DNA of 64,000 nt. It comes from an uncultured Actinomycetota bacterium. GTDB lineage: Bacteria; Actinomycetota; Thermoleophilia; RBG-16-64-13. The translations under genes and the position numbers were made by a program. The stretch is from contig CAWBOK010000001.1 in the NCBI GenBank assembly GCA_963790415.1, positions 770,545 to 834,544 of the forward strand, written 5' to 3'. How positions within the stretch are numbered: position 1 is the stretch's first letter; each line of letters starts with the position of its first letter. Positions 3,419-40,699 of this stretch are shown here, one piece after another. A model generated the notes under the pieces. The model searched no databases and had not been told where the DNA came from. It saw only the letters and a list, made by a program, of their open reading frames with translations.

Positions 3419-4680
3419 TCCGGATCCTCAACCATCGTGTCTTCTCCCGACCGCCCGAAAGTGGTCCGACATCAGTGCGGCACCCCGAACGTACCACGAG
3501 GTCGCCGCCTTCATCTCTGGTGTTTGTGTTGGGTCTGGCCGCAGTGGCCGACGCAGCCAGCCCGCCGATGGCCAAGTGGGTCGATCCGCTGCCGGTTCCA
3601 CCAGTGGCAACGAAGACGTTCAACAAGTTGATCTCAGGGTGGGCCGACTACTACGAGATCAACATGACGTCCAGCCGGCATCAGTTCAACTCCGACCTGG
3701 GCCCGGCCACAGTCTGGACGTACGGCCAGCCCGGGAAGTCGCCCGTCCTGCTTGGCCCCACGATCATTGCGAAAACGGGCCGGCCGGTGGTGGTCAAATA
3801 CATCAACAACCTTCCGACGGACCCGAGTCTCTTCCCGCTGAAGGCCTCGATCGACTCGACACTGATGGGGTGGGACGTGCCCTCGGGCGCAGCGATCCCG
3901 CACCTCCACGGAGGACACACCGCGGCGCGATTCGATGGGACTCCCGGGCAATGGTGGACAGCCGATGGGGTCAAAGGCCCCGACTATGTAACCAACACCT
4001 TCACGTACGTCAACGACCAGCCGGCTTCGCTGCTCTGGTACCACGACCACACGATGGGGGCCACCCGGTTCAAGCCCTACCTCGGACTGGCCGCGGCCTA
4101 CTTGATCTTCGACAAGGTCGACAACGGCACCACGATCAACGGCCAGCAGGTCCCGTCCGGCTACGGCAAGTACCACCTGCCGCTGGTGATCCAGGAGAAG
4201 CAGTTCAACGCCGACGGCACCTTGTTCTACCCCACAGAAGGCATCAGCTCCGTTCACCCGATATGGGTTCCTGAGTTCTTCGGCGACACTCCGGTCATCA
4301 ACGGCAAGGCCTATCCGTTCCTGGATGCCCAGCCTAGGAGATACCGCCTTCGCCTCCTGAACGGCTCGCAGGCCCGCTTCTACAACCTGCGGTTCAAGTC
4401 GGCCGAGAGTGACCTCCCCTTCTGGATCATTGGATCTGAACAAGGACTCCTCCCCGCCCCGGTGCCCGCCTCGGGATGTCGTGCTGAAGGAGACCATGGT
4501 TCCGGGCTTCGACCCTTCGGAGGAGGTGCCGAGCGAGGTGCTTCTCAACGGCTACCACTTCATGGACCCGACGACGGACGTCATCAAGGCCGGCACCACA
4601 GAGACCTGGCAGTGGATCAACCTCACGGTGGACGCCCACCCGATGCACCCGCACCTGGTGGCCTCCCAGGTGGTTGATGC
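3397..4680 (+). pseudogene. multicopper oxidase (CotA/bilirubin-oxidase type), frameshifted and 3' truncated
   Basis: HLHGGH and WYHDH copper motifs are in the frame of ORF 3397. The continuation LLNGYHF...TWQWINLTVDAHPMHPHLV is in the +1 frame (ORF 4409); the shift is near 4450-4480. The C-terminal HCH copper motif is absent. Confidence 0.7.
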
Positions 4681-4738
4681 GGCCGTTTGTGATCGTGAAA
4701 TAGAGCGAACGCCTCGGCGAACGTCACGGACATGTCTT

Positions 4739-4775
4739 GGGGGTGGGTCGACGCCGACCCACCCCCATCCTTTTC
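4739..4775 (+). terminator. rho-independent terminator
   Basis: Perfect 12-bp stem GGGGGTGGGTCG/CGACCCACCCCC with a 4-nt loop, followed by the T-rich tract atccttttc. Confidence 0.7.
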
Positions 4776-4900
4776 AGACCGCTATCGTTGGCCTTCTCCG
4801 CGGGTTGGCCTTTGCGGCGCTTCCGTTCTCACATCCCATTCCCCACTTAGAACTCAGGAGCTGTGACCGGAAACGGGCACACCCGCACCGCAGAGCCGCG

Positions 4901-5611
4901 TCAAGACAACCCGACCAGCTGCGCTTCGAGGTCGCGCACACGTCGCCCCATGACAACGGTGATCTCGCGCATCAGGTGGTAGCCGAGAACGGGATCGGCT
5001 TCGCACAGGGACTCGAGCTCCACCTTCCCCAGCACCGCCACCTCGCTGTCCACCATGGCGTGACCGGTTGCCGTGTAGTGGAAGGGAGGTACCGCGCCGG
5101 ACCAGGCAAACAGTTCACCCGGACGGACCGTATCGACCAGCACATGGCGACCGGACCCTGCTTCGACCAGGAGACCCACCCGCCCGGAGAGCAAGACACA
5201 GAGACCGAAGGCCTCGTCGCCCTCCCTCATGACAAGGTCGCACGCCCGGTACCGCCGGATCTCCGCGTGCTTGACCAATGCCGCTCGATCAGCCTCGAGA
5301 AGGTAGCGCAAGCCACCCGTACCGAGAAGGTTCCCCTCATCCGGGGGCTCTGCAGCCGGCGTTGCCGAGGGTGGCGTCGCGATGGCGGGCGTCGCGGTAG
5401 GCTGCGTCGAAGGGGGCGCGGGAACAGGAGGCGACGGGCCCGGGCCAACCGCACGCGCCGCCAACGCGCCGGCGGCTGTGGTTCCCGGCACAGAGCCAGA
5501 CACCGCCTGACCTGCGAGTGACGCCCGGGAGGCGCGGCGCGAAGAGAGCGCCCAGTAGATGAATAGCACGGCGAATATGGGGAATACGACGGCCATCGTG
5601 ATCACCTCCAC
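4901..5611 (-). CDS. membrane-anchored cyclic-nucleotide-binding domain protein
   Basis: 236 aa. N-terminal TM (VVFPIFAVLFIYWAL), Ala/Pro linker, and a cNMP-binding fold (YRACDLVMREGDEAFGLCVLLSGRVGLLV...RPGELFAWS). Confidence 0.7.
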   Translation of the reverse strand: MEVITMAVVFPIFAVLFIYWALSSRRASRASLAGQAVSGSVPGTTAAGALAARAVGPGPSPPVPAPPSTQPTATPAIATPPSATPAAEPPDEGNLLGTGGLRYLLEADRAALVKHAEIRRYRACDLVMREGDEAFGLCVLLSGRVGLLVEAGSGRHVLVDTVRPGELFAWSGAVPPFHYTATGHAMVDSEVAVLGKVELESLCEADPVLGYHLMREITVVMGRRVRDLEAQLVGLS

Positions 5612-6316: not shown

Positions 6317-6742
6317 CTACGCGCAGTAAACGCGCACGTTGTCGCCGTTCTTGGAATCGACGTCGATCTCCATCTCGCGCAGCGACTCGATCAGCTCCTC
6401 GATGTCCTCCTGCTTGAGGTTAGCGAAGTCGATCGCCATGCCGCTGGCGGCCATCTGTTTGTTGATCTGATCCATCGCCTGGGGAGGAATCAGCGACGTG
6501 AGTTTGAGGCCGGCGCGCACCAGGCCCAGGGGGATCTTGACGTTCACGTTGTCTCCCTCCGTGCTCACCACCTTGACGTACATGAACTTCGGGGGGGCCG
6601 CCGACCCCGACCTTGACGGCGGGTCGGCAACTGCTGTCTGCGTTCCGTGCACATCCATGGCGTCGAGCAGGCGGGAGCCCTCTTCGGCGGTGATCTTGCC
6701 CTCGGCCACCAGACTCAGGATGCGTGTGCGTTCTTCGCCCAT
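6317..6742 (-). CDS. SHOCT-like domain protein (LiaX/YvlB N-terminal type)
   Basis: ATG at 6742 preceded by AAGGAG. N-terminus MGEERTRILSLVAEGKITAEEGSRLLDAM. Last gene of a three-gene operon led by the DUF2089 gene. Confidence 0.6.
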   Translation of the reverse strand: MGEERTRILSLVAEGKITAEEGSRLLDAMDVHGTQTAVADPPSRSGSAAPPKFMYVKVVSTEGDNVNVKIPLGLVRAGLKLTSLIPPQAMDQINKQMAASGMAIDFANLKQEDIEELIESLREMEIDVDSKNGDNVRVYCA

Positions 6743-6783
6743 GACGTACTCCTTTCCTCGCGCGCTCGCGACCAGGCGGCGCG

Positions 6784-7065
6784 TCACCATACCGTCACGT
6801 CGACGGTGCGGCTCTTGTTGTCTACGAACACTTGGGTCCCCCGTGTCTCGCCCAGCGCATCGAGGCAGCCGAGCATGAAGGTCGTGAACCGGTGCGGTCG
6901 TCCCGTCACGAAAAGGACGGCGTCGGCCAACGCCGCGGCCACGATAGCCAACCCGCCCAGGAGCAACAGCAGCGGCCACAGCACGAACACCGGGAGCCAC
7001 AGGTGGAGCTTCCGGCCGCCGGCCTCAGCCACGCGGACGTCGACGACCGCGGGCGGGGCCTTCAC
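6784..7065 (-). CDS. small membrane protein
   Basis: 93 aa with a hydrophobic core LWLPVFVLWPLLLLLGGLAIVAAALADAVLF. Its start overlaps the stop of the upstream gene (ATGA). Confidence 0.5.
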   Translation of the reverse strand: MKAPPAVVDVRVAEAGGRKLHLWLPVFVLWPLLLLLGGLAIVAAALADAVLFVTGRPHRFTTFMLGCLDALGETRGTQVFVDNKSRTVDVTVW

Positions 7066-7421
7066 TGGGCCAACCTCTCGGCCGCCTCGGCCGCGCTGAT
7101 CTCACCGCGTTCCAGCAGGTCCAGGATCTCGTCCCGCTCCGACACCTGCACGACCTGGGCCAACTGCAACTGCTGAACGATGCGGTTCAACCGGTTCTTG
7201 ACCGTGGGGTAGCTGATACCGAACGCCTTCTCCATGAACTTGATCGACCCATGGCAGCGGACGAACTCCGTCACGAACACCTGGTCCTCATAGCGCAGGC
7301 ACGCCAGCGGCGGGAGTTCGAACTCGCCCGCCAAGTCGATGCCCGTGTCGACCAGACGCACGCCGGTCACCAGGAACGGGCGTTCGCCGGTCAGGTCGGT
7401 CAGATCGTGCCAGTCGGCCAT
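7062..7421 (-). CDS. DUF2089-family DNA-binding protein
   Basis: ATG at 7421 preceded by AAGGAGGTGA. Contains the HTH segment FMEKAFGISYPTVKNRLNRI and the tail ILDLLERGEISAAEAAERL. Confidence 0.7.
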   Translation of the reverse strand: MADWHDLTDLTGERPFLVTGVRLVDTGIDLAGEFELPPLACLRYEDQVFVTEFVRCHGSIKFMEKAFGISYPTVKNRLNRIVQQLQLAQVVQVSERDEILDLLERGEISAAEAAERLAQ

Positions 7422-7468
7422 GTGGTCACCTCCTTCGGTTCTTCCCAACTATGGTGCACCCGATTACC

Positions 7469-19230: not shown

Positions 19231-19845
19231 CTAGCACCCGGCTTTCGCCTCGGAAACAACGGCGGGGAATGCCAACGCCTCGACCAACACAAAGGCCGCC
19301 TGCAGTGCCGACGTCGGACAGAGGGGAAAGCACTCCTTGCAGTCCCAGCACTCTCGGGCCGCGATCTCGGGGACGAAGCTGATCTCCCGTCTTGCCCCTC
19401 TGTCGACGAAGCCGACGGCGTTCGCCTGCTTGACCTCGGCGCAGTACCGGACGCACAGGCCGCAGTGGATGCAGAAGGAGGCTTCTTTCTCGAAGCGGTC
19501 TCTGTCTGCTTCATACGTCTGCGCGAGGTCCTGCAACACCAAAGAATCCGGCGCGTGGGCCAGCAACAGCTCCAGGATCATCTTGCGGATCCTGTCGATC
19601 TTCTCCGATCTGGTCCGTACGACCAGGCCGTTCTCCACAGGGTAGACGCAGGCGGCGACGAGCCGCGGCCAACCGCGCACCTCCACCTCGACGGTGCAGA
19701 GACGGCAGCCGCCGTGGGGATCCAGCTTCTCGTGGTAGCAGAGGGTCGGAATCTCTATCCCGGCCTTCTGCGCCGCCTCGAGGATGGTCATCCCCTCGTG
19801 CGCCTCGACCTCTCTTCCGTCGATCTGCAGCGTAGTCCCGCTCAT
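19231..19845 (-). CDS. bamI: 2Fe-2S/4Fe-4S protein, NuoG N-terminal-like (BamI-like)
   Basis: 204 aa and intact. [49 protein letters not shown] plus [11 protein letters not shown] and [12 protein letters not shown] motifs. Last gene of the cluster. Confidence 0.7.
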
Positions 19846-21781
19846 GTCTCTTGCTCTTTCTGACGACGGTTCTTTCGTCTTCGGGGAGGGGAGGCGGAAC
19901 GGGCTCGCCGGAGAGCTTCTTCACGGCACCATAGCGGGCGGGGCAGACTTCGAAGCACGTGCCGCACTTCGTGCACTTCTCCTGATCGATCACGTGGATC
20001 ACGTTCCTGTCGCCCTCGATCGCCTCGGCGGGGCAGTTCTTGGCGCAGAGCATGCAGCCCCGGCAACTGCCGGGTCGATGTAGTACGCGATCAGCTCCTT
20101 GCAGGACGAGGGCCGGGCACCGCTTCTCGTTGATGTGCGCCTCGTACTCGTCTCTGAAGTAGCGGAGCGTGCTCAGGAACGGGTTGGGGGCGCTCTTGCC
20201 GAGAGCGCAGAGGGAGGCCTCCTTGGCCACCTCGGACAGTTCCTCCAGGAGCTCGATGTCGCCCTCCCTGCCCCTGCCCTTGGTGATGTCGGTCAGGATC
20301 TTGAGCATCTGCCGCAGGCCCTCGCGGCAGGGGACGCACTTGCCGCACGACTCGTCGGTGAGGAAGTCGATGAAGTACCTGGCGACATCGACCATGCAGG
20401 TGTCTTCGTCCATGACGATCATCCCGCCGGAGCCCATCATCGAGCCGGCCGCGGTGAGCTCGTCGAAGCCGACCTCCAGGTCCAGCATCTCCTCGGGGAT
20501 GCACCCGCCCGACGGTCCCCCGGTCTGCACGGCCTTGAACTTCTTGCCGCCGGGGATGCCGCCGCCGATGTCGTAGATGATCTCCCTGAGCGTCATCCCC
20601 ATGGGCACTTCCACCAGGCCGGTGTTGGTGATCTTGCCGACCAGGGAGAAGATCTTCGTGCCCTTGCTCTTCTCGGTTCCGATCTTGGCGAACCAGTCGG
20701 CGCCCTCGTTGATGATCAGCGGGACGTTGGCCCAGGTCTCGACGTTGTTCAGTACGCTGGGCCTGTCCCACACACCCTTGACGGCCGTGTGGATGTACTT
20801 CGACCGCGGCTCTCCCACCCTGCCTTCCAAGGCCGTCATCAAAGCGCTGGACTCGCCGCACACGAAGGCGCCGGCCCCTTGGTGCACCGTGACGGCGAAG
20901 TCGAAGCCGGAGCCCAGGATGTTCTTGCCGAGAAGACCGTACTCCTCGGCCTTCCGGATGGCGATGTGGACGTTCTCCACCGCCAGCGGGTACTCCTGGC
21001 GCACGTAGATGTAGCCCTCGTGGGCGCCGATGGCGTAGGCGCCGATGGTCAGCCCCTCGAGCACGGAGTGAGGGTTCCCTTCCAGAAGGCTCCGGTCCAT
21101 GTAGGCGCCGGGGTCCCCCTCGTCGGCGTTGACGATCACGTACTTCGTCTCTCCCGGAGCGTTGCGGGCCTCTTCCCACTTCCTGCCCGCGGGGAAGCCG
21201 CCGCCGCCCCTGCCCCTCAGAGTCGGACTTCTTGACTTCCTCCAACACGCCGTTCGGCGGTCATCGTGGAGAGGGCCTTGGCCAGCGCCCGAGTAGCCAC
21301 CGATCGCCAGGTAGTCGTCGATGTCTCTTTGGATCGATGCTTCCGTTGGCGCCGAAGACGAGGCGCTCCTGGTGCTTGTAGAACGGGATCTCGCCCTCCC
21401 GCTCGATCCGTCTCGCCGGTGGCGGGGTCCACGTAGAGCAGACGCTCGACGACCTGCTTGTCCTGCAGCGTCTGGGAGACGATCTCGGGGACATCCTCGG
21501 GCTCGATCTGCAGGTAGCAGACTTCCTCGGGATGCATGACGACGATCGGGCCGCTCTCGCAGAACCCGTGACAACCGGTCTTTCGGATGTCCACTTCGTC
21601 GCTCAAGCCCCTGCTCCTGCGAGCTCCTCCTCGAGACGCGGCGGCGACCTCCGCGCTCCCAGAAGCGTGGCACGCGGACCCCGAGCAGAGCGTGACGCAG
21701 GGCCTCTTCGGGTCCCTCTTGGACAGGAGGTCGCTCCTGAATTCCTCCAGCTGCGGCGGGTGATTCGATCCGGGGCATCAT
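19842..21781 (-). pseudogene. bamH: NuoF/HydB-like flavoprotein with thioredoxin-like 2Fe-2S N-domain (BamH-like), multiply frame-disrupted
   Basis: The N-terminal 190 aa must be read across 6 successive +1 shifts (near 21757, 21412, 21328, 21288, 21254, 21222) to recover [90 protein letters not shown]. The rest is open and carries NADH/FMN/FeS motifs. There is a compensated frameshift pair at 20064-20112. The zero frame has no stop before 19511; a TGA overlapping the bamI ATG exists only in another frame. Confidence 0.75.
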
Positions 21782-21786
21782 TCGTC

Positions 21787-22261
21787 CTAAGTCGTAGTTC
21801 TTCAGCACGTCCGCGGTGCCGGCCGGCGTCGATCTTGCCGTGCGGCCTGCCGTCGACCTCCATGACCGGCCCCAGAGCGCAGCAGCCGAGGCAGTTGACG
21901 GTCTCCAGGCTGAACTTCAGGTCCAGGTCCGTCTCGCCCGGCATGATCCCGGTCAGGTCCTGCACCGAGTCGAGGACCCGGTCGGCCCCCCGAACATGGC
22001 AGGCCGTACCCATGCAGACGTGGATCTCGTGACGCCCCTTGGGCACCAGGCTGAACGCCTTGTAGAAGGTGGCGATGTGCTGGACGCGCGTCATAGGGCA
22101 CGTGCAGCCTCTCGCTCACCCGCTCCAGGACCTCCCTGGGCAGCCAGTGCTTCTCGGCTTGGATCTCCAGCAGTATCTGGATGAGCGCGCTTGCGTCCGC
22201 ATCGATACCTGTCGATGATCTGCTCGAGTCGGTCGTCACTCACGGTCGTTGCCTGCACCAT
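21787..22261 (-). pseudogene. bamG: NuoE-like thioredoxin-type 2Fe-2S protein (BamG-like), frame-disrupted
   Basis: ATG at 22261 after GGAAGGAAG. Pieces MVQATTVSDDRLEQIIDRY / DASALIQILLEIQAEKHWLPREVLERVSERLHVP / VQHIATFYKAFSLVPKGRHEIHVCMGTACHVRG...[16 protein letters not shown] / ADVLKNYD lie in successive +1 frames (shifts near 22200, 22095, 21833). The 3' end is uncertain. Confidence 0.7.
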
Positions 22262-22976
22262 CTTCCTTCCCCTCACCCACAGCCCGCTCTTGCGCCCTAG
22301 GCCAGAGCGAAGCGCTTGCGGCTCTCGTCGTACCTGACCAATCCCTGCCGTGACGCACTGTTGATCTGCTTCGCCACGTCCGACGGCTTCGACGCCCAGG
22401 CGCTCAGACAGCTCTCCCGTGGAGAGGGGGCTGTCTCCGAGGAGCGAGACGATCTGGCTCAAGGTCAGCTGCTCTCCGATCAGGTCGTCGAAGAGGCGGT
22501 CGAACTCGTCGCTGGCGAAGAACTCCTCGTACGCGGTCTGCGACTTGACGGGCACCCTCAGCCTCTCCCGTTCCACCAGCTTGATGTAGGGGATCAACCT
22601 CGTGGCCGCCTCGAGCTTGAACTTCAGCGTCATCGTCATCGATGCCCTCGCCCTCGCCCAGAGGTCCCAGCTGTTTCACGTGTGAGGAGAAGTCGTTCAT
22701 CACTTCCGCGAAGCGGATACCTTCGGACGACGACAACCATTCGAGCCGCAACCTATCGGGGTTCAACCCGATGTGTTCCAGAAGCTTCTTGCATATGTGC
22801 ATCATGCTCAAGGCATCGTAGTTGCCTTCGGTTATGTAGTGACATTCGCCCAGCCAGCACCCACCGACGAACACCCCGTCATTGCCATTCGAGAAGGCCC
22901 GGAGTACGAAGGCCAGATCGATCCTTCCGGTGCACATAAGTCGGACGATCCTGATGTCAGAAGCATATTGTAGTCT

Positions 22977-23009
22977 GGAAACTCCAGCCAAGTCCGCGGC
23001 GGAGTATCC
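22977..23009 (-). promoter_or_regulatory. candidate bacterial SECIS hairpin
   Basis: Starts directly after the UGA: GGAUACUCC-GCC-[GCGGACUU]-GGC-U-GGAGUUUCC. About 12 bp with one U.U mismatch and one bulge. The apical loop starts with G, 12 nt after the UGA. Confidence 0.4.
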
Positions 23010-23012
23010 TCA
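23010..23012 (-). other. in-frame TGA, probable selenocysteine codon
   Basis: Codon 19 of the MvhD-like gene, in the context C-N-W-TGA-G-Y-S. Cys-type homologs have C-N-W-C at this position. Confidence 0.65.
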
Positions 23013-23103
23013 CCAGTTACACAAGAACCCGAGGATCCTCGGCTTGAACTCGATTCCCGTACTCATCTCGACCTCCTTTCTGTGGTAGTGATCGCCGGTC
23101 CTT

Positions 23104-26100
23104 TCAGCAGACGACTTCCGCGAGGGCCGGAACCGCCGCGTCGATCTGGAGCATGATCTCCTCGTCGGTGTAGTGCTTCAGATAGATGGCCGCCGTGGGG
23201 CACTTGGCGTTGCAGAGGCCGTCGCCTTTGCAGAGCACGGGGTTGACCACGGCCTTCTTGCCGTGCTGGGTGTCGTGCAACTCGATGGCGCCATAGGTGC
23301 AGGCTGAGATGCAGGCGCCGCAGGCGACGCAATCCTCCTCCTTCACCTCGCACACCGAGCCCGACGCGGTGACGGTGTCGTGCGAGAGAAGGGTGATGGC
23401 CCGGCCGGCGGCACCGTAGGCCTGGCTGATCGTCTCCGAGAGGTGCTTGGGATAGTGGGCCGTGCCGCACAGGAAGATCCCGTCGGCGGCGAAGTCCACC
23501 GGCCGCAGCTTCACGTGGGCTTCCTGGAAGAAGCCGTCGGGGCTCAACGACACCTTGAACAAGCCGGGACATCTCGAGCGTCCCCCGCGACGAGACGACG
23601 GCCGCCGACAGCGCGAGCGCGTCGGCGTCGATGGCGATCCTCTGCCCCAGGATCGGATCGGTCACGGCGACCCTCAGGACGCGCCGACCGTCTTCGTCGA
23701 CGGCCTCCACCACCGGCTTGTCCTCGGGCTCGTAGCGGATGAAGCGCACGCCCCGCTCCGACGCCTCGCGGTAGTAGTCCTCACGGAAGCCGTAGGTGCG
23801 CATGTCCCGGAAGAGGACGTAGATGTCCATCTCGGGGTTGATCTCTTTGAGCTTCAGCGCGTTCTTGATGGCCTGGCTGCAGCAGATCCGGGCGCAGTAG
23901 TTCCGGTCCGGCTGCCGGCAGCCGACACACTGGATCATCACCATGCTCTGGGCGTCGGTCAGCCACTCCGCCCCGTCGGCGATCTGCTCCTCCAGCTCGA
24001 GCTGGGTCACGACCCGCTCGCCGGTGCCGTAGGAGTACTCGGTGGGCGTGTATTCCTCGGCGCCGGTGGCGAGGATGGCCGCTCCGTGGAGGATCTGCCT
24101 GACCCTGCCTTCGGACTGCACCGTCGTGACGAAGTTGCCCACGTAGCCGGAGACGTCGGTGATCGTGGCGTCTGTGGAGACGTGGACCAGCGGGTGGCGA
24201 TACACCTTGCGCACGAGCTCGCTCAGGAAGGCCTGGATGTCGAGCCCTTCCAGCGTGTGGCGGAGCCTCCGCGCCATGCCCCCCAGGTCCGATTCCTTCT
24301 CGACCAGGTAGACCTCGAAACCCTGCTCGGCCATGCTGAGGGCGCTGGTCATGCCGGCCACGCCCCCACCGACCACCAGCGCCGTCTTGTTGACGGGCAG
24401 CTCGAACTCCTCGAGCGGCTCCAGGAGGCGAGGTACGCGCCACCGACATCCGCACGATGTCCTTCGCCTTCTGGGTGGCCAGCTCCTTCTCGCGGCTGTG
24501 CACCCACGAGCAGTGCTCGCGGATGTTGGCCATGTCGAAGAAGTACTGGTTGATGCCGCCTTCGCGCAGCGTGTCCCGGAACAGCGGCTCGTGCGTTCTC
24601 GGGGTGCAGGCAGCCACGACCACGCGGTTGAGACCCTTCTCACGGATGGTGTTCGCTATCTGCGCGGCCGCGTCGGTGGAACAGATGAACAGTCCCTCTT
24701 CCGCGTGAACGACATTGTCCAAGGTCAGGGAGTAGTCGACCACCCCGGGCACGTCGACCACGCGGCCGATGTTGGAACCGCAGTGGCACACGAAGACGCC
24801 GACCCGGGTCTCCTCCTCGGAGACATCCCTCTCCACCGGGTAGACCCGATCCTTGGCCAGCCTACCCCGGCGGTAGTCGAGGAGTTGACCGCATTGCGAG
24901 CCGGCCCCGCTGGCCGACATCACCGACTCCGGGATGTCGATGGGTCCCTGGAAGGCCCCGCTGATGAAGACGCCGGGGCGGGAGGTCTCCATGGGGTTCA
25001 CCGGGTTGGTCTTGCAGAATCCGTACGAGTTGAGCTCGATGCCGAATGTCCTGGCGAAGTCCTGGGCATCGGACGGCGGGCTCATGCCCACCGAGAGCAC
25101 CACCATGTCGAACTCTTCCTCCACCACCCCGTCCGCGTCGGTGGCGTAGCGGACGGTGACGTTCTTCGTCTCGGGGATCTCTCTGCCGATGGAGACGTAG
25201 CTCCGGATGAACCGCACCCCGGGAAGCCTCTCCGCCCGCTGATAGAAGCGCTCGAAGTCCTTGCCGTACGACCGGATATCGTTGTGGAAGATGGTGGCCT
25301 TGGCGTCGGCGTCGTGATCCTTGGTCAGGATCACCTGCTTCTGAGTGTACGAGCAGCAGACCGCCGAGCAGTAGGTGTTGGCGCCCGGGATGACCTGCCG
25401 AGAGCCGACGCAGTGGATCCAGGCGATGTTGTGAGGATGCCGCTTGTTCGAGGGCCGCAGGATCTCGCCCTCGAACGGCCCGGTGGAACACAGCAGCCGC
25501 TCGTAGTCGAGACTGGTTACGACGTTCTCCATCGTCCCGTAGCCGTAGTCGCCCCTCAGTCCCGGGATCGAACACCTCGTAGCCCGGGGACAGGACGATG
25601 GCTCCCACGTTTAGCTCGATCTTCTCTGCCTTCTGATTGAGATCGATCGCGTCGTTCTTGCACACGCCCTCGCAGATGGCGCACTTCTTGTCCTGCAGAT
25701 ACCGGCAGCTGTCGTCGATGTACGTGACCAGCGGGACGGCCTGCGAGAAGTAGATGTGGACGGCCTTGTTGTCGGACAGCTCCTGGTTGTACGGATCGGG
25801 GATCTTGACCGGGCAGTACTCGACGCACGTGCCGCACCCCGTGCACTTGTCCTCGATGATGCGCCGGGGCTTCTTCGTGAGCGTGACCGTGAAGTCTCCG
25901 GCCTCTCCTTCGACGCTGTCGACTTCCGTGTAGGTGAGTATCTCGATGTTGGGGTGTCGGTCGCACTCGATGAACTTCGGCGATTCGATGCACATGGAGC
26001 AGTCGTTGGTGGGAAAGGTCTTGTCGAGCTGAGACATCTTGCCGCCGATGGTCGGCAGCTTCTCGACCAAGTAGACCTTGAAGCCCGAGGTGGCAAGGTC

Positions 26101-26223
26101 CAGGGCGGCCTGAATGCCGCTGATCCCACCACCGACCACCATGACGTCGCCGAAGTTGCCCGGCATGGGGCTCGCTATGACGTCCAGGTGAGAGAGTGCG
26201 TTGTGAAACGGTGCGTTATCCAC
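23104..26223 (-). pseudogene. bamE: large double HdrA-like FAD/FeS protein with ferredoxin inserts (BamE-like), three frame disruptions
   Basis: GTG start. Four pieces in successive +1 frames (shifts near 25548, 24433, 23563): VMVVGGGISGIQAALDLA...GYEVFDPG / LRGDYGYGTMENVVTSLDYERLL...IHCVGSRQ...AKDIVRMSVARTS / LLEPLEEFELPVNKTALVVGGGVAGMTSAL...IQCVGCRQ / LFKVSLSPDGFFQEAH...CVACGACISAC...CKGDGLCNAKCP. Confidence 0.8.
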
Positions 26224-26275
26224 TTCGTTCTATCCTCATCGGGTTGTCGCCGTCTCCAACTACCGTCGCCGTTTC

Positions 26276-27427
26276 CTAGACAACTGCTCGGACGATCTCG
26301 GTGATGTCCTTGATCTCGACGGCGTCGCTGTCTTCGCGGTTCATCCGGCTGTCTTCGAAGTTGGTGATGCAGTAGGGACAGGACGTGACCAGCACGTCGG
26401 CTCCCGCCTCGACCGCCTGATCGAGGCGGAGGTCGGAGAACCGTTCTCCCTTCACCGTCTCCATCCAGATCCTGCCGCCCCCGCCCCCGCAACAGAGACT
26501 GTCCACCCGCGTGTCCGGCATCTCGGCGAGCTCCAGCCCAGGTATCCTCTCGAGGATCTCCCGGGGCTCGTCGTACACGCCGTTGTGGCGTCCCAGGTAG
26601 CACGGGTCGTGGTACGTCACCGTCTTCGCGTACTCCTCCTTCAACTCCAGCCTGCCGTCGGCCATCAGTTGGAGAAGGAACTGCGACATGCTGACGACCT
26701 CGAAGTCCACCCGGAACTCCGTGTACTCGTTCTTGAACGCGTGGTAACAGTGCGGGGACGAGACCAGGATCTTCTTGACCCCATGGTCGATGAAGGTCTT
26801 GATGTTCTCCCTGGCCAGGCGCTTGAACAGGTCCTCGTTGCCCGTCTTGCGGATGCTCTCCCCGCAGCAGTTCTCGGCGGCGCCGAGGATCCCGAAATCG
26901 ACCCCGGCCTGCTTGAGCAACTCCGCCGTAGCTCTGGCCACCTTCTTCAAGCGCGGATCGTAGGCGAGATAGCAGCACGGGAAGTAGAGGTACTCCATGC
27001 CCTCCTTGAACGCCTTTACCCCGAGCCCCTCGGTCCACTTGGTCCGGTCTTCGCGCTTCTCGTTCAGCGGGTTCCCTTCGCTCTGGAGACTCGCGCTGAT
27101 CGTGCGGATAGGCTGCACGTGCTTGGGGAACACCTTGTACTCGGTGGCCATCCTGCGCAGCGCCACAGCATCCTCTATCTGCTGCACGTCCCGGGGGCAC
27201 CGCTGAGGGCATCTGCCGCAGGTAGTGCAGCGCCAGATGTCTTCGGTCTCGATGTCGGTCATGCCGAAGGTGGCCTCGCGAATGACCTTGCGCATACTGA
27301 AGTTCGTGACTCTATTCCAAGGGCACACGGTGTCGCACAAGCCGCATTGATAGCAGCGCTTGACCTGTTCGCCGCCGCTGTCCTTTATGACATCGACGAT
27401 CTCCCTATAGTCGGACAGATTCTCCAC
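26276..27427 (-). CDS. bamD: HdrD-type FeS/CCG-domain oxidoreductase (BamD-like)
   Basis: 383 aa and intact. CYQCGLCDTVCP and CTTCGRCPQRCP ferredoxin motifs, plus two CCG motifs (YFPCCY..NCCG; YHDPCYLGR..CCGGGGG). Confidence 0.8.
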   Translation of the reverse strand: MENLSDYREIVDVIKDSGGEQVKRCYQCGLCDTVCPWNRVTNFSMRKVIREATFGMTDIETEDIWRCTTCGRCPQRCPRDVQQIEDAVALRRMATEYKVFPKHVQPIRTISASLQSEGNPLNEKREDRTKWTEGLGVKAFKEGMEYLYFPCCYLAYDPRLKKVARATAELLKQAGVDFGILGAAENCCGESIRKTGNEDLFKRLARENIKTFIDHGVKKILVSSPHCYHAFKNEYTEFRVDFEVVSMSQFLLQLMADGRLELKEEYAKTVTYHDPCYLGRHNGVYDEPREILERIPGLELAEMPDTRVDSLCCGGGGGRIWMETVKGERFSDLRLDQAVEAGADVLVTSCPYCITNFEDSRMNREDSDAVEIKDITEIVRAVV

Positions 27428-27462
27428 TCTGTATCTACACTCTCTTCTTTCGCGGCGGTGGT

Positions 27463-28014
27463 TTAGCTCTTGATGGACATTCTGGCAACAGTCTCCACGA
27501 GCTTCTGGAGTCCGTACTTGTCCACCAGGGAATCCAGTCCCACCTCGAGTTCACCGCGCTTCTCTTCCTTCACGGATTCCCGGTCGTCCTCGCGTTCGAT
27601 GTACGTCAGCGCATCGCAGCGACAGACCTGGACACACCAGGGCTCCGTGAGAGTCTCATCTTCCTCGCACATATCGCACTTCAGAGGGAGGCCGGAGTCG
27701 GGCTCTTTGAAGTAGTCCCGCGCCGGGCAGGAAACCCCACAGAAGCTGCACTCGGAGTACTCTTTTCCTTCGATCGTGTAGATGTGTCTGCCCGTGCACT
27801 CGGCCTTCGTGTAGTCGCCCGCACGTATCGGGACGTAGACGTCTTTCAACTCGTCCAGCACGACGCGGATGCGCGACCTCGCCGGGTTCGTGCTGCTGAA
27901 TCTCGGATGGGCGTGGAACGCGGAACAGGCCAGTTCGCACGCGCGGCAGCCGATGCACTTGTCGATATCGACTTTGATTTCCTTGATCATGTTCGTCTTG
28001 GCGTCATCAGTCAC
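27463..28014 (-). CDS. bamC: multi-[4Fe-4S] ferredoxin-like subunit (BamC-like)
   Basis: 183 aa and intact. CIGCRACELAC, CSFCGVSCP and CDMCEED...CVQVCRCDA cysteine clusters. Sits immediately downstream of the AOR-family gene. Confidence 0.75.
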   Translation of the reverse strand: MTDDAKTNMIKEIKVDIDKCIGCRACELACSAFHAHPRFSSTNPARSRIRVVLDELKDVYVPIRAGDYTKAECTGRHIYTIEGKEYSECSFCGVSCPARDYFKEPDSGLPLKCDMCEEDETLTEPWCVQVCRCDALTYIEREDDRESVKEEKRGELEVGLDSLVDKYGLQKLVETVARMSIKS

Positions 28015-28044
28015 GACACATAACCCTTCACTCGCGCACCCCTC

Positions 28045-29991
28045 CTACCCCGCCACGGTCGCCGTCGCAGCCGCGCCCGCATCCGCGGTCAGGATGCCCC
28101 GCCGGACGAAATCGTCGCTCACGTAGCCCAGGCCCAACGAATCCAGCGTCGTCTTTCGTGGGAATGCCGTCGTTCGTCCACCCCTTGAACTCGTAGTAGG
28201 CGTCGAGCAGCTTCTCTTCGTTCTCCGGTTCCCGCTTCTTCCAATGGTCGGCGGGCGGCTTCTCGTCGACCCGCCGCATGCCCCTGCGGATGTTGAGGGC
28301 CCGTACCAGAGTTGCGGTTGCGTCGCCCGATCTCCCAGAGAGAGGTGTCGTCGAGATCGAACCCGGTCGCATGCGAGATGAACCCGGGCAGGTTGTAGAC
28401 GTGGTACGGCGGCCGGCCACCGAATTGACCCCTGAACGACGACAGGAACGCGCACGTGCCTATGGCGTCGTCGATGTAGTGCATGGTCTCGTTCCAGTCG
28501 GCGATGTTGACCGCCGCCTCAAAAGACTGGTGGGTGCGTGGTTCCCAATCCAGGTACCACTTCTTGAACTTCTCCGGAGCCGCGTCCCACCGGTCGACGA
28601 ACCGCTGTCTCTCTTCCTTGTCGGCGATGGGGATCTGGGGATACGACCCTTCGGTCTGGGTGATGTTCATCTTCTCGCCGGTGGCGTACATGAGGAAGTA
28701 CGGGTAGTTGACCGTGCCCAGCTTGATGGGCACCTGCTCGAACTTCTTCATGGTGTTGTGATCGAACGCCTCGGCGCCCTTGCCGATCTGGCGGGCAGCC
28801 CAGTAGACACCGTTCGCCAGGATGTCGCCGATGCCCTCCCGGCGAACGATCTTCTCGACCAGGTAGAAGAAACGCCCCGCCGTGTCGGGTGGGAATCCCG
28901 GCACGTCGTCGTCGGTGAGGATGCCGGCTTCGTACAACTCGACTGCGAAGGCGAGGAGCTGGGGCGTGGTGAACCCGTCAAGCCCGTATTCCTGGGTGAG
29001 GCTGAGCATGCTGTAGTTGAAGTCCAGTTCCTCATATGCCGCCATGGCATATGTCAGCTTGCTGTAGCACTTGAGCTGGAATATCTGGCGTCCCGGGTAG
29101 CGGATGCCGACATGGCAGTCCTTCGGACAGTTGTAGCAGCCCGTCCACCGCACCTCGTACTTGCGGGTGGTCTCCTCCCACTCCTTGGCGCGCTCCTCGG
29201 TCCATACACCCCTCACGCGATCGCGGGCGTTGCCCCAGGCGAAGTTGTCGACGTGCCACGTCTCGTCGTGCTCGTGCCGGAAGATGCACCCGCAGTCCGG
29301 GTTGTCGTAGATCTCCTTGTACTGCGCGTTGCAGATCTCGAAGAGCTCCGCGGGCCGAGCGACGTTGATGTCCTTCGTGCCTCGAACGGCGATCGCCTTC
29401 AGCCGTTTGTCGCCCATGATCACACCGACGCCCCGGGAGGCGCTGGAGTTGGAGTGCTCGATGGAAGACATGTAGACGCGGTTCTCGCCGGCCAGGCCGA
29501 TGGCCGCCACCTGGGCCTCGGGCTGCTTCAACTCCTCCTTGATCAGCGCGCCGGTCTCTATCGCGCCCTTGCCCCGGAGATGCGTGGCGTCACGGATCTC
29601 TATCTTGTCGTTGTGGATCCACAGATAGACCAGATCGTCCGCCTTACCGCGGATCACGATCTTGTCGAAGCCGGCATGCTTGAGTTCCGGCCCGAAGAAT
29701 CCGCCGAAGATGGAATGCGAATACAGGTTGGTCTGCGGCAGAGAAGGTGTCGACACAGGTACGATTGGCGCCGGGGACGGGCGTGCCATGCAGGATACCC
29801 GTGCTGAAGATGAGCAGATTGTCGGGCGAGAAGGGTTCGACGTCGGGGCCGACCCTGTCCCACAGTATCTTCGCGGCCGTGCCCTGGCCCCCCAAGTGCA
29901 GCGCGGTCAACCTCGGGTCGGTCTCTACCCTCTCGAGGCTTCCTCGGGACAGATCGACCTCCAGGTTGAACCCTGTCTCTGCGTACCTCAT
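28045..29991 (-). pseudogene. bamB: tungsten-pterin aldehyde:ferredoxin-oxidoreductase-family subunit (BamB-like), three frame disruptions
   Basis: ATG at 29991. MRYAETGFNLEVDLSRGSLERVETDPRL...GTPVPGANRTCVDTFS / PQTNLYSHSIFGGFFGPELKHAGFDKIVIRGK...(about 520 aa).../ TLVRALNIRRGMRRVDEKPPADHWKK...GWTNDGIPTK / TTLDSLGLGYVSDDFVRRGIL. +1 shifts near 29743, 28311 and 28153. N- and C-terminal strings closely resemble BamB as I recall it. Confidence 0.8.
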
Positions 29992-38553: not shown

Positions 38554-39831
38554 TCAGAACCGCGCGAAATCCTCGATATCCTCTTCGAACTCGCGCACCA
38601 TCCCCCGGGAGAGCGTCGGCCGCACCTCCGAGATAGCACGCAGGAAGTCCTCGGTATCCGCGATTGCCCCCGATTCCCCGAACACGGCCCGCTCGAACGC
38701 GAACTGAGCCGCCTTGCGGGCGGCGAACTCCATGTCGGCCGGGGTGAAGAGTGCGCTGGCTTCTACCAGAGCGTCGAGATCGACCTCGGCGGCGGTGATG
38801 CCCTCGACGTAGCGTTCCCATATCGACCGGCGCGCCTGGTCATCGGGGGGACCGATCGGCAACAGGTGGTCGAACCGGCCGGGCCGCAGGAACGCCGAGT
38901 CCAGGGTGCGGATCGAGTTCGTAGCGCAGATGAGAAGCCGGTTCGGGTGGCCCCGGAAGACCGGGATCGCCTTCAGCAACTCGTTCGTCACCGCTTGGGA
39001 GACGGGCGCGTCGTCGCGGCTCTGGGCGATCTCCTCCACCTCGTCGATGAACACCACGGCGGCGTCGATCTCGGCCAGACGGTGGAAGAACATCCGCAGT
39101 TCATGGGCCTGCCCGTCCCGCCCTCCGGCGGCAAGCCGGCTGGGGAAGAGTTCGATGAACGGCCAGTCCAAACGAGAAGCGATCCCCTTGGCAAATGTCG
39201 TCTTGCCGGTCCCCGGCGGTCCGAAGAGCACGATGGCCTTGGGCGGCTGGACGCCGTGATGCTCGGCGAGGCCGGGTTTCGCGAGGGGCAGGATGATCCG
39301 GCGCTCGATGAGCTGCTTCTCGCGGTCCATCCCTTTGAGCCGGTCCCACAGGCCGGTCGGCATCCGCTGCCCACCCAACTCGGCGAGAAGGTTGAGCTCG
39401 GCCGGTCTGGCGGGGAGGAACCGTTCGAAGTAGCTGACCTCGGGGCGGATGGTGAACCCATGGTCCAAGAAGAGCTGTTCCTCGACTTCTCCAGGTGGGA
39501 ACACGGCCGTGGTTTGCCGGACGCCCTTGTCGAGCAGCTCGCGATGGATGGCGTCGAGCAGACTGCTCCTCACCCCCCGCCGGCGCCAGGCCGGCGAGAC
39601 TGCCAGACGGAGGATCCACGCCCGGTCGCCGCTGACACGGCTGACCACAGTGCCGATCACCTGCCCCTCCACCACGGCCACCAGGGCCGGTTCGGCGGCG
39701 AGGATGGCGGCCACGACCTCCGCTATCCGAAAGAGCGGCGCCGATCCCTCGACGGTGGCTTCTTCCCATAGGTGCACTGCCTGATCTAAGTCGCTATCCT
39801 CAAAATCACGTATCTGCCAGATGGGTCGCAT
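38554..39831 (-). CDS. GNAT acetyltransferase - AAA+ ATPase fusion protein
   Basis: ATG at 39831. N-terminal GNAT (IRDFEDSDLDQAVHLWE...LAVSPAWRRRGV). C-terminal AAA+ domain with Walker A GPPGTGKT, Walker B VVFIDEVE and RPGRFD. Confidence 0.8.
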   Translation of the reverse strand: MRPIWQIRDFEDSDLDQAVHLWEEATVEGSAPLFRIAEVVAAILAAEPALVAVVEGQVIGTVVSRVSGDRAWILRLAVSPAWRRRGVRSSLLDAIHRELLDKGVRQTTAVFPPGEVEEQLFLDHGFTIRPEVSYFERFLPARPAELNLLAELGGQRMPTGLWDRLKGMDREKQLIERRIILPLAKPGLAEHHGVQPPKAIVLFGPPGTGKTTFAKGIASRLDWPFIELFPSRLAAGGRDGQAHELRMFFHRLAEIDAAVVFIDEVEEIAQSRDDAPVSQAVTNELLKAIPVFRGHPNRLLICATNSIRTLDSAFLRPGRFDHLLPIGPPDDQARRSIWERYVEGITAAEVDLDALVEASALFTPADMEFAARKAAQFAFERAVFGESGAIADTEDFLRAISEVRPTLSRGMVREFEEDIEDFARF

Positions 39832-39840
39832 GAGGGCCCC

Positions 39841-40011
39841 CTTAGGAGGCTGTTGAAGATCGAAGCCTTGGCCGCCAGAAGGCACTGGCCGGCGCGATAC
39901 GGTGTCCTCGGTCGCGCACGTAGCGCTGCTACGAGCTATCCTTGCGTCCTTGTCTCACGCTCAGCGCAAGCGCCCTGGTGGCGAAGCGCCATTCTTCAAC
40001 AGCCTGTTAGG
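39841..40011. repeat. MITE/REP-like element with imperfect terminal inverted repeats
   Basis: Left end TTAGGAGGCTGTTGAAGATCGAAGCCTTGGCCGCCAG. The right end reverse-complements to CCTAACAGGCTGTTGAAGAATGGCGCTTCGCCACCAG, sharing a 13-nt core AGGCTGTTGAAGA. The left 96 nt are repeated in inverted orientation at 40426-40520. Confidence 0.5.
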
Positions 40012-40425: not shown

Positions 40426-40520
40426 GCTCGTAGCAACGCTACGCGCGAGACCGAGGACGCCGTATCGCGCCGGCCAGTGCGTTCTGGGAGCCAAGGCTTC
40501 GGTTATCAGCAGCCTCCTAG
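40426..40520. repeat. inverted copy of the left arm of the 39841-40011 element
   Basis: Hand alignment to the reverse complement of 39841-39936: 84 of 96 positions identical, including a 21-nt exact run CCGTATCGCGCCGGCCAGTGC. Confidence 0.6.
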
Positions 40521-40699
40521 TGCGTCAGCCATGAGATGAAGAAGTACAGGATCACACCGATGATGACGATCACAGTGCCGTACAATGCGATCGGTCCCAC
40601 GCAGCAGCCTGTCAACTGGTTCCGAGACTCCAACCAGGGCCAGGTCATTACCCGCCACGCGGGCCAATCCTGTTCGCGGTGCTGCTTTTCTTCGTTCAT
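40517..40699 (-). CDS. small membrane protein (about 60 aa)
   Basis: MNEEKQHREQDWPAWRV...GPIALYGTVIVIIGVILYFFISWLTH has a clear C-terminal TM helix. The competing plus-strand ORF 40536..40919 looks like its antisense shadow. Confidence 0.35.
   Translation of the reverse strand: MNEEKQHREQDWPAWRVMTWPWLESRNQLTGCCVGPIALYGTVIVIIGVILYFFISWLTH

What the first reader, a model, noticed from the sequence alone, without database searches (positions are those of the whole stretch)
22977..23012. In-frame UGA at a conserved Cys of the MvhD-like (BamF-like) gene, with an adjacent hairpin: probable selenocysteine plus SECIS
Translation from ATG 23066 gives MSTGIEFKPRILGFLCNW-TGA-GYSAADLAGVSRLQY... The frame is unchanged across the TGA; the ORF-track entry 22404..22991 is in the same frame.

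In Cys-type MvhD/FlpD proteins the motif is C-N-W-C-x-Y, so the TGA replaces a cluster-ligand-type Cys. Sec-containing MvhD/VhuD/BamF homologs are established.

Directly downstream, GGAUACUCCGCC[GCGGACUU]GGCUGGAGUUUCC can fold into a stem of about 12 bp. Its G-initiated apical loop sits at a distance compatible with bacterial SECIS elements.
Basis: partly seen in the sequence, partly recalled or inferred. Interest (0 to 1): 0.7.

Follow-up and report, generated by a model that had tools for sequence, protein, structure and literature searches.

The report
Selenocysteine codon in BamF gene

Summary
An ORF starts at ATG 23066 on the minus strand, behind an AGGAGG ribosome-binding site. It reads MSTGIEFKPRILGFLCNW-TGA-GYSAADLAG, with the TGA at 23012..23010.

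The gene is bamF (MvhD/FlpD domain plus a winged-helix tail). It lies in a colinear bamBCDEFGHI cluster for class II benzoyl-CoA reductase.

I compared 87 BamF genes (86 loci and the window). Sixty-eight have TGA at this codon and 19 have TGC or TGT. A 2026 cryo-EM preprint reports Sec19 in Geobacter metallireducens BamF, which is the same codon number.

It folds well in this sequence (-17.2 kcal/mol), but about 45 of 62 distinct Sec-type relatives cannot form its central pairs. It also lies too close to the UGA for the published bacterial SECIS model.
- **The constrained element.** This is CUGGA-GUU-UCCAG (22987..22975). Its synonymous sites are frozen in Sec-type genes and free in Cys-type genes.
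- **The role of the residue.** Per the preprint, Sec19 is a redox residue next to the [2Fe-2S] cluster. The preprint does not describe it as a ligand.

One caveat applies. In this assembly the bam cluster alone carries about 24 single-base insertions, two of them inside bamF. The Sec machinery could not be checked.

The parts
22297..23066 (-). bamF-like gene (FlpD/MvhD domain, about 110-aa extension and winged-helix tail; about 255 codons once repaired). In this assembly it is interrupted by two 1-nt insertions.
   Evidence: Pfam FlpD E=1e-48. The repaired product aligns end to end with 255-aa homologs at 64-70% identity. tblastn with the L002 BamF shows three frames: 23066-22590, 22630-22388 and 22389-22303. 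MvhD structure 5odc_D matches at E=3e-43.
23072..23077 (-). Ribosome-binding site AGGAGG, 5 nt upstream of the ATG (23064..23066).
   Evidence: Read directly from the sequence. GGAGG plus a start codon is kept in relatives L001-L003 and L005-L007.
23010..23012 (-). In-frame UGA, codon 19, read as selenocysteine (motif C16-N-W-U19).
   Evidence: TGA at the aligned codon in 68 of 87 BamF genes, TGC/TGT in 19. Sec19 in G. metallireducens BamF. CxxU is the listed Sec motif of the PF02662 selenoprotein family.
22975..22987 (-). Conserved SECIS core: 5-bp stem with GUU triloop (CUGGA-GUU-UCCAG), starting 22 nt after the UGA. The loop starts 27 nt after the UGA.
   Evidence: It is the RNAalifold consensus of 68 Sec-type sequences. 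99.4% of cells are paired, and G31 and U32 are invariant. Codon entropy is about 0 at codons +8..+12 in Sec-type genes against 1.3-2.0 bits in Cys-type genes; Arg is AGR in 67/67 against CGN in 18/19. The exact 13-mer occurs once in the window. It occurs once per locus in 62 of 67 Sec-type loci, never elsewhere and never in Cys-type loci.
22971..22990 (-). Possible extended SECIS helix: UGG/CUA adds 3 pairs below the core, with A22974 bulged.
   Evidence: 93.5% of cells are paired across 62 distinct sequences; pair U23-R42 is U-A in 30 and U-G in 27. Leu +13 uses CUG/CUA in 44 of 47. Energy is -6.9 kcal/mol, or -9.3 with a further 3-bp lower stem. This becomes the window's MFE fold once UGA+12 nt are held single-stranded.
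22977..23009 (-). It is a clade-specific alternative fold that cannot coexist with the conserved core hairpin.
   Evidence: -17.2 kcal/mol, z=-3.1. It is not conserved across the family. However, the six closest sequences share an invariant 44-nt block from TGG-TGA to +38, and the next-longest invariant run in bamF is 11 nt.
22633..22633 (-). 1-nt insertion (frameshift) in bamF relative to all close relatives.
   Evidence: GACGAtGAC against GACGA-CAC.
22394..22394 (-). Second 1-nt insertion (frameshift) in bamF.
   Evidence: GGGCGtCGAAG against GGGCG-CGAAG.
19231..29991 (-). bamBCDEFGHI cluster: bamB 28090-29991, bamC 27469-28032, bamD 26279-27295, bamE 23107-26223, bamF 22297-23066, bamG about 21788-22261, bamH 19850-21666, bamI 19231-19845.
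   Evidence: Pfam domains. tblastn with the intact L002 cluster gives 84-91% aa identity for most segments. The BamB fragment matches G. metallireducens BamB 4z3w_A at E=6e-167, against 1e-44 or weaker for other AOR enzymes.

Best explanation
The TGA at 23012..23010 is a selenocysteine codon, Sec19 of BamF. BamF is the MvhD-like [2Fe-2S] adaptor subunit that links the NADH/ferredoxin-oxidising BamGHI module to the HdrA-like bifurcating BamE subunit in class II (tungsten) benzoyl-CoA reductase.

**Proposed mechanism (inferred, not shown here).**
- When the ribosome places UGA19 in its A site, roughly the next 12 nt lie inside the mRNA channel.
- That melts the long clade-specific hairpin which starts right after the UGA.
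- The downstream stretch can then fold as the conserved mini-hairpin CUGGA-GUU-UCCAG (22987..22975), possibly extended to 8 bp with a bulged A.
- The invariant GpU at the 5' side of its loop is the expected contact for SelB-GTP-Sec-tRNA(Sec), which delivers Sec in competition with RF2.

**Role in the protein.** According to the G. metallireducens structure, Sec19 sits beside the [2Fe-2S] cluster. It is not described as a ligand. It is proposed to take part in selenol/thiol redox chemistry on the way to the bifurcating FAD.

**Shown here:** the codon, its homology to Cys and Sec in relatives, the RNA-level constraint, and the operon context.
**Inferred:** SelB binding, ribosome-driven refolding, and the chemistry.
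For: 1. The in-frame TGA has an intact upstream ORF and ribosome-binding site.
2. The 10 closest database proteins (81-95% identity) are all 212 aa, that is, called from Met44. Three further truncated hits (74-81% identity) are 221-230 aa. The contigs of six of these proteins were fetched (7 loci). All carry the same TGA preceded by a conserved N-terminus.
3. TGA occurs in 68 of 87 BamF genes and TGC/TGT in 19. The next residue is A/G in all translatable Sec-type genes (67 of 68) and C/S in all Cys-type genes.
4. Published Sec19 in G. metallireducens BamF. PF02662 is an established selenoprotein family with motif CxxU.
5. RNA constraint: the RNAalifold consensus is the mini-hairpin. Synonymous-codon entropy collapses only at codons +8..+12 in Sec-type genes and not in Cys-type genes. 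G31 and U32 of the loop are invariant while the third loop base varies.
6. There are at least 3 Sec/Cys switches on the tree. L010, a Cys-type gene nested among Sec-type genes, has lost the hairpin codons.
7. The mini-hairpin meets three of the four bSECIS criteria outright: loop of 3 nt, G then U at the loop start, and 27 nt spacing.
8. With UGA+12 nt blocked, the mini-hairpin is in the MFE fold of 52 of 68 sequences, the window included.
9. TGA is the ordinary stop of 16 of 31 Pfam-supported ORFs here, so there is no genome-wide recoding.
10. Context: a colinear bamB-I cluster, with BamB matching 4z3w at E=6e-167.
Against: - No selA, selB, selD or tRNA-Sec was found in the 64 kb. The rest of the genome is not available.
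- Rfam reports no SECIS.
- The mini-hairpin shows no compensatory double changes; it is simply invariant. Alone it is weak (-4.0 kcal/mol), below the -7.5 threshold unless extended.
- In this sequence the unconstrained MFE fold is the competing long hairpin.
- In this assembly bamF and its neighbours carry frameshifting 1-nt insertions. As written, the gene could not yield full-length BamF.
Confidence: 0.9

Rival explanations
1. The reader's long 12-bp hairpin (23009..22977) is the functional SECIS in this particular clade, and the GUU mini-hairpin is incidental.
For: It is the MFE fold, at -17.2 kcal/mol with z=-3.1. Its loop has G at the second position. In the six closest sequences the whole 44 nt from TGG-TGA to +38 is invariant, including codons +1..+7, while the next-longest invariant run in bamF is 11 nt. 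Several changes in the wider GYS subgroup fall in the loop or are wobble-compatible C-to-U changes.
Against: The central pairs 5-35, 10-30 and 11-29 are unpaired in about 45 of 62 distinct Sec-type sequences. The third base of the Ser codon, which pairs with G28, changes to G or A without compensation in L014, L026, L036, L040 and L079. The loop starts 13 nt after the UGA, outside the 16-37 nt of the bSECIS model. Its 5' arm would lie in the ribosomal mRNA channel when UGA is decoded (inference).
Confidence: 0.12
2. The bam operon in this genome is dead. The roughly 24 single-base insertions are real, so the Sec codon and SECIS are an intact-looking relic of a recently inactivated gene.
For: The insertions are confined to 19.2-30 kb. 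Neighbouring genes are uninterrupted, among them MMPL, amidase, TelA and TrpE; TrpE aligns over 100% of its length to a 93%-identical homolog. A uniform sequencing error rate would not give that pattern.
Against: About 3,300 repaired bam codons contain no nonsense codon other than the Sec TGA, and protein identity to intact relatives remains 84-91% for most segments. The events are almost all +1 insertions, many adjacent to a SNP. That looks like a consensus artefact from mixed strains or paralogs and is unlike the deletion-biased decay usual in bacteria (general knowledge).
Confidence: 0.12
3. The TGA is a true stop or a base-call error, and BamF starts at Met44 as gene callers annotate it.
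For: Automatic annotation of the 10 closest relatives gives 212-aa proteins starting at Met44. This assembly is visibly error-prone in this region.
Against: Sixty-seven further loci from different samples and assemblers have TGA at the same codon. The 18 upstream codons, including the invariant Cys16, and the ribosome-binding site are conserved. The FlpD model starts at residue 11. The window's errors are insertions, not substitutions.
Confidence: 0.02
4. TGA is reassigned genome-wide (to Trp or Gly) in this organism.
For: None beyond the in-frame TGA itself.
Against: TGA terminates 16 of 31 Pfam-supported ORFs in the window. The aligned residue in homologs is Cys. G+C content is 65.7%.
Confidence: 0.01

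Closest known systems
BamF of Geobacter metallireducens class II benzoyl-CoA reductase (Gmet_2083; BamBCDEFGHI complex)
   Same: Same operon order, bamB to bamI. Same architecture: an MvhD domain, more than 100 extra residues, and a winged helix. Selenocysteine at codon 19 in the motif C-x-W-U.
   Different: Only about 60% protein identity to Geobacteraceae BamF (L025). The host appears to be an uncultured high-G+C, probably actinobacterial lineage, not a Geobacter. The residue after Sec is Gly, not Ala. In this assembly the gene is frameshifted twice.
MvhD/VhuD/FrhD selenoprotein family (PF02662, Sec motif CxxU) of methanogens and sulfate reducers
   Same: The N-terminal 140 residues align over the full length of MvhD structures 5odc_D, 7bkb_F and 8rvu_F (E about 1e-43), with Cys opposite Sec19. 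The family is listed as an experimentally verified selenoprotein family.
   Different: MvhD is about 140 aa and partners a [NiFe] hydrogenase and HdrABC. This protein is about 255 aa with a wHTH tail and partners BamGHI/BamE. The archaeal members use 3'-UTR SECIS elements, not an in-ORF hairpin.
Bacterial SECIS consensus (bSECISearch model; E. coli fdhF and Moorella SelB-binding hairpins)
   Same: A stem-loop inside the ORF just 3' of the UGA. It has a small apical loop starting with G-U, an upper stem of 5-8 bp, and 27 nt from the UGA to the loop.
   Different: The core is very short and weak (-4 kcal/mol) and reaches the -7.5 threshold only with flanking pairs. No Rfam family matches. In this clade it competes with a much more stable alternative hairpin.

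Membership tests
BamF subunit of class II benzoyl-CoA reductase | Encoded between bamE (double HdrA-like) and bamG (2Fe-2S thioredoxin-like) in a bamBCDEFGHI cluster headed by a BamB-type tungsten AOR | tested here: met
   Pfam domains of the flanking ORFs. Colinear tblastn against the intact L002 cluster. BamB matches 4z3w_A at E=6e-167, against 1e-44 for the next AOR.
BamF subunit of class II benzoyl-CoA reductase | MvhD-like domain extended by more than 100 residues, ending in a winged helix-turn-helix | tested here: met
   The repaired product is about 255 aa against 140-aa MvhD. Full-length homologs carry precomputed HTH_5/MarR_2 domains. The architecture is described in the preprint. The window needs two frame repairs to show it.
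BamF subunit of class II benzoyl-CoA reductase | Selenocysteine at position 19 next to the [2Fe-2S] site | tested here: met
   TGA is codon 19. Sec19 in G. metallireducens. Incorporation of Se itself was not tested.
MvhD/FrhD selenoprotein family (PF02662) | FlpD domain with the Sec motif CxxU aligned to CxxC in Cys-type homologs | tested here: met
   FlpD E=1e-48. C16-N-W-U19 against C-N-W-C in 19 Cys-type BamF genes and in the MvhD structures. Motif as listed.
Bacterial SECIS (bSECIS consensus model) | Apical loop of 3-9 nt on an upper stem of 4-16 bp | tested here: met
The mini-hairpin has a 3-nt loop and 5 bp, or 8 bp with a bulge.
Bacterial SECIS (bSECIS consensus model) | G in one of the first two loop positions, usually followed by G or U | tested here: met
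The loop is GUU, and G31 and U32 are invariant in 68 sequences.
Bacterial SECIS (bSECIS consensus model) | 16-37 nt between the UGA and the apical loop | tested here: met
27 nt for the mini-hairpin (columns 4-30).
Bacterial SECIS (bSECIS consensus model) | Minimum free energy of -7.5 kcal/mol or lower | tested here: inconclusive
The core alone is -4.0, the 8-bp version -6.9, and -9.3 with a 3-bp lower stem.
Bacterial SECIS (bSECIS consensus model) | Binds SelB and directs Sec insertion | not testable with these tools
   This needs a SelB binding assay or a read-through reporter.
Sec-decoding organism | selA, selB, selC (tRNA-Sec) and selD present in the genome | not testable with these tools
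   None was found in the 64-kb window: ARAGORN found no tRNA, and Pfam scans of 30 major ORFs outside the bam cluster found no sel genes. The source contig is not on record, so the rest of the genome cannot be examined.

The most novel reading that the evidence does not exclude
**RNA.** The Sec-type bamF SECIS is a minimal GUU-triloop hairpin held nucleotide-for-nucleotide across MAGs labelled as at least eight different phyla. That would imply the operon travels with a SECIS that diverse SelB proteins accept. In the window's clade this hairpin is locked inside a stronger competing hairpin that starts at the UGA. Sec insertion would then depend on ribosome-driven refolding, a kinetic switch that could tune or gate Sec decoding.

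**Protein.** There is a perfect coupling of U-[A/G] in 67 Sec-type genes with C-[C/S] in 19 Cys-type genes. This suggests that one Sec functionally replaces a vicinal Cys-Cys/Ser redox pair beside the [2Fe-2S] cluster.
Probability: 0.2. Interest if true: 0.5.

Novelty: new member of a known kind. Interest (0 to 1): 0.3.

Why it matters
- **Annotation.** Gene callers truncate this protein at Met44, as seen in the 10 closest database entries. That removes Cys16 and Sec19, part of the redox site of the adaptor that couples the two bifurcation modules of class II benzoyl-CoA reductase. Recognising the Sec codon gives the correct protein.
- **Physiology.** It flags a selenium (and tungsten) requirement for anaerobic aromatic degradation in an uncultured, probably actinobacterial lineage.
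- **A practical signature.** The comparative analysis yields TGA-G..-N19-CUGGAGUUUCCAG, which finds Sec-type bamF genes in metagenomes.
- **A more precise SECIS definition.** It places the signal in the GUU mini-hairpin, not the more obvious long hairpin.

The biology itself, Sec in BamF, is already established.

Tried and rejected
- **Rfam.** A scan of the whole window at gathering thresholds, and of 22850-23120 at E up to 10, gave no SECIS or other meaningful RNA family.
- **ARAGORN.** No tRNA, and so no tRNA-Sec, in the window.
- **Pfam.** Scans of 30 major ORFs outside the bam cluster found no SelA, SelB or SelD domains.
- **Source contig.** Exact-match look-ups of BamI and the amidase were not on record.
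- **Species match.** The GTDB species-representative scan found no relative above 71% BamF identity, so the source species was not identified there.
- **Covariation.** Counting gave no compensatory changes for either hairpin. Support for the mini-hairpin therefore rests on synonymous-site conservation and the Sec/Cys contrast.
- **Literature.** PMC374395 (Peters, Rother and Boll 2004) is not held.
- **Rejected readings.** TGA as stop with a Met44 start, base-call error, and genome-wide TGA reassignment; see the rival explanations.

Full report
**1. The observation**

On the minus strand an ORF begins at ATG 23066..23064, five bases after AGGAGG (23077..23072). It reads MSTGIEFKPRILGFLCNW, then TGA (23012..23010), then continues in the same frame as GYSAADLAGVSRLQYASDIRIVRLMCTGR....

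With Cys placed at the TGA, the first 146 residues match Pfam FlpD (PF02662, MvhD delta subunit) over the whole model at E=1e-48. They also match solved MvhD structures (5odc_D, 7bkb_F, 8rvu_F) at about 1e-43, with a Cys opposite the TGA.

**2. What the gene is**

The neighbours on the same strand are:
- a tungsten AOR-type protein whose best solved relative is G. metallireducens BamB (4z3w_A, E=6e-167; other AORs 1e-44 or weaker);
- a Fer4_11 protein;
- an HdrD-like protein (no Pfam hit in the window; its 84%-identical L002 counterpart carries a CCG domain);
- a double HdrA-like protein;
- this FlpD protein;
- a thioredoxin-like 2Fe-2S protein;
- a NuoF-like protein with ferredoxin domains;
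- a Fer2 protein.

tblastn with an intact relative cluster (L002) shows colinear bamB-C-D-E-F-G-H-I, with most segments at 84-91% identity.

Once repaired, the product is about 255 aa and aligns end to end with 255-aa homologs that carry HTH_5/MarR-type C-terminal domains. This matches the published description of BamF as an MvhD adaptor more than 100 residues longer than usual, with a winged helix (bamF = Gmet_2083 'hydrogenase delta subunit; HTH').

**3. Is the TGA real, and is it Sec?**

- **Database hits.** The 10 closest proteins (81-95% identity) are all 212 aa, that is, called from Met44. Three further truncated hits (74-81%) are 221-230 aa.
- **Their DNA.** I fetched the contigs of six of these proteins, giving seven loci from different metagenomes and assemblers. 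All carry TGA at the same codon, preceded by the same conserved 18 codons. The six whose contigs reach far enough upstream also keep the ribosome-binding site.
- **Wider sample.** A scan of GTDB species representatives added 80 loci. Of 87 BamF genes in all, 68 have TGA and 19 have TGC or TGT at this codon.
- **Published precedent.** The cryo-EM preprint on G. metallireducens BCRII reports Sec19 in BamF. The window's TGA is also codon 19. PF02662 is listed among experimentally verified selenoprotein families with motif CxxU.
- **No recoding.** TGA is also the ordinary stop of 16 of 31 Pfam-supported ORFs in the window, so genome-wide recoding is excluded.

A base-call error and a Met44 start are therefore effectively refuted.

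**4. Which RNA element is constrained?**

I aligned 63 nt from the UGA for the 68 Sec-type genes (A2).

*The consensus structure.* RNAalifold returns a 5-bp stem with a GUU loop, CUGGA-GUU-UCCAG, at columns 26-38 (window 22987..22975). In that small hairpin 99.4% of cells pair. G31 and U32 of the loop are invariant, while the third loop base varies.

*Codon usage.* Among Sec-type genes, synonymous-codon entropy is 0-0.46 bits at codons +8 to +12:

| Codon | Sec-type usage |
|---|---|
| Ala | GCU 63/63 |
| Gly | GGA 64/67 |
| Val | GUU 62/67 |
| Ser | UCC 66/66 |
| Arg | AGR 67/67 |

The same residues in Cys-type genes have 1.26-1.99 bits, with Arg as CGN in 18 of 19.

*Distribution of the motif.* The exact 13-mer is unique in the window. 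It occurs once in each of 62 of the 67 Sec-type loci, always at the same offset. It occurs nowhere else in the loci and in no Cys-type locus.

*Phylogenetic contrast.* An NJ tree needs at least three Sec/Cys switches. L010, a Cys-type gene nested beside Sec-type L005, has lost the hairpin codons.

*Limits of this evidence.* There are no compensatory double changes. The evidence is conservation at synonymous sites plus the Sec/Cys contrast, not covariation.

**5. Comparison with the bacterial SECIS model**

The criteria below are as quoted in PMC13188914.

|---|---|---|
| Loop 3-9 nt | 3 nt | 6 nt |
| Stem 4-16 bp | 5 bp (8 bp with a bulged A; 93.5% of cells paired) | 12 bp |
| G then G/U at loop start | G-U | G at position 2 |
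| 16-37 nt from UGA to loop | 27 nt | 13 nt (fails) |
| MFE of -7.5 kcal/mol or lower | -4.0 core, -6.9 extended, -9.3 with a lower 3-bp stem: borderline | -17.2 |

The two folds cannot coexist. If UGA+12 nt are held single-stranded, as they would be in the ribosome's mRNA channel (an inference from general knowledge), the window refolds into the extended mini-hairpin. That hairpin is then in the MFE fold of 52 of 68 sequences.

One observation favours some extra constraint in the window's own clade. The six closest sequences share a 44-nt invariant block from TGG-TGA to +38, while the next-longest invariant run in bamF is 11 nt. I therefore keep the long hairpin as a minority rival, or as a possible regulatory competitor.

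**6. Role of the residue**

The preprint describes the equivalent MvhD cysteine as lying near the [2Fe-2S] cluster and forming a regulatory disulfide. It proposes a selenenylsulfide intermediate for Sec19. Cys16, 45, 70 and 75 are invariant and can supply the four ligands; Cys45, 70 and 75 are invariant in all 15 aligned sequences and Cys16 in the 13 that reach it.

A side observation: Sec is always followed by Ala or Gly, and Cys is always followed by Cys or Ser.

**7. Caveats**

*Frameshifts in the bam cluster.*
- Relative to L002, the window's bam cluster has about 24 single-base insertions. Two lie in bamF (about 22633 and 22394) and others in bamB, E, G and H.
- Flanking genes are uninterrupted. 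These include MMPL, amidase, TelA and TrpE; TrpE aligns 100% to a 93%-identical homolog.
- The repaired bam frames contain no stop other than the Sec TGA.
- I judge a local consensus artefact more likely than true decay. This needs the reads.

*Source organism.* It is probably an uncultured high-G+C actinobacterial lineage. The best BamF hit among species representatives is an Actinomycetes MAG at 71%. The best named TrpE hits are Thermoleophilia MAGs at 69%. This assignment is tentative.

**8. Verdict**

This is a real selenocysteine codon in a known selenoprotein (BamF), with a refined SECIS assignment. I rate it a new member of a known kind, of modest interest.

Noticed in passing
window 19231-29991 (bam cluster), e.g. 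29991, 29736, 28310, 28151, 25559, 24428, 23565, 22633, 22394, 22203, 22099, 21831: About 24 single-base insertions relative to intact relatives break bamB, E, F, G and H into several frames. They are not in homopolymers and are often next to a SNP. Flanking genes (MMPL, amidase, TelA, TrpE) are uninterrupted, and the repaired bam frames contain no nonsense codons. This looks like a local consensus artefact from mixed strains or paralogs, but a recently inactivated operon is not excluded.
   Followed up: partly
window 39826-39936 and 40426-40536: An inverted repeat with 111-nt arms, 83% complementary, 489 nt apart. The arms are 86-93% identical to the bamG-bamH intergenic sequence of relatives L004 (1224-1313) and L007 (1910-2080). 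This suggests a dispersed repeat or small mobile element shared by this lineage. No Rfam family matches.
   Followed up: partly
codon 20 of bamF (window 23007-23009) and the same codon in loci L001-L087: There is a perfect coupling. All 67 translatable Sec-type genes have Ala or Gly after Sec, so the base after UGA is always G. All 19 Cys-type genes have Cys or Ser after the Cys. This could reflect UGA context, SECIS constraints, or a vicinal redox partner made redundant by Sec.
   Followed up: no
loci L008-L087 (record titles): Sec-type bamF genes with the identical 13-nt hairpin occur in MAGs labelled Actinomycetes, Desulfobacterota groups, Planctomycetota, Anaerolineae/Chloroflexota, Bacteroidetes, Fibrobacteraceae, Acidobacteriota and Myxococcales. 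This suggests wide horizontal spread of the operon together with its SECIS. MAG binning errors were not assessed.
   Followed up: no
window 3195-5521 (+) and 6320-7448 (-): Runs of overlapping high-GC3 ORFs in different frames suggest that a few genes outside the bam cluster may also be frameshifted. One example is the multicopper-oxidase-like region, which has only a partial Cu-oxidase_3 hit. This was not checked against homologs.
   Followed up: no
window 1-64000: The gene content and best named hits suggest an uncultured Actinomycetota source. The content includes LytR_cpsA_psr, MMPL, a Ser/Thr kinase and TelA, at 65.7% G+C. TrpE is closest to Thermoleophilia MAGs at 69%. Such a group is not classically associated with class II benzoyl-CoA reductase or with selenoproteins.
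   Followed up: partly
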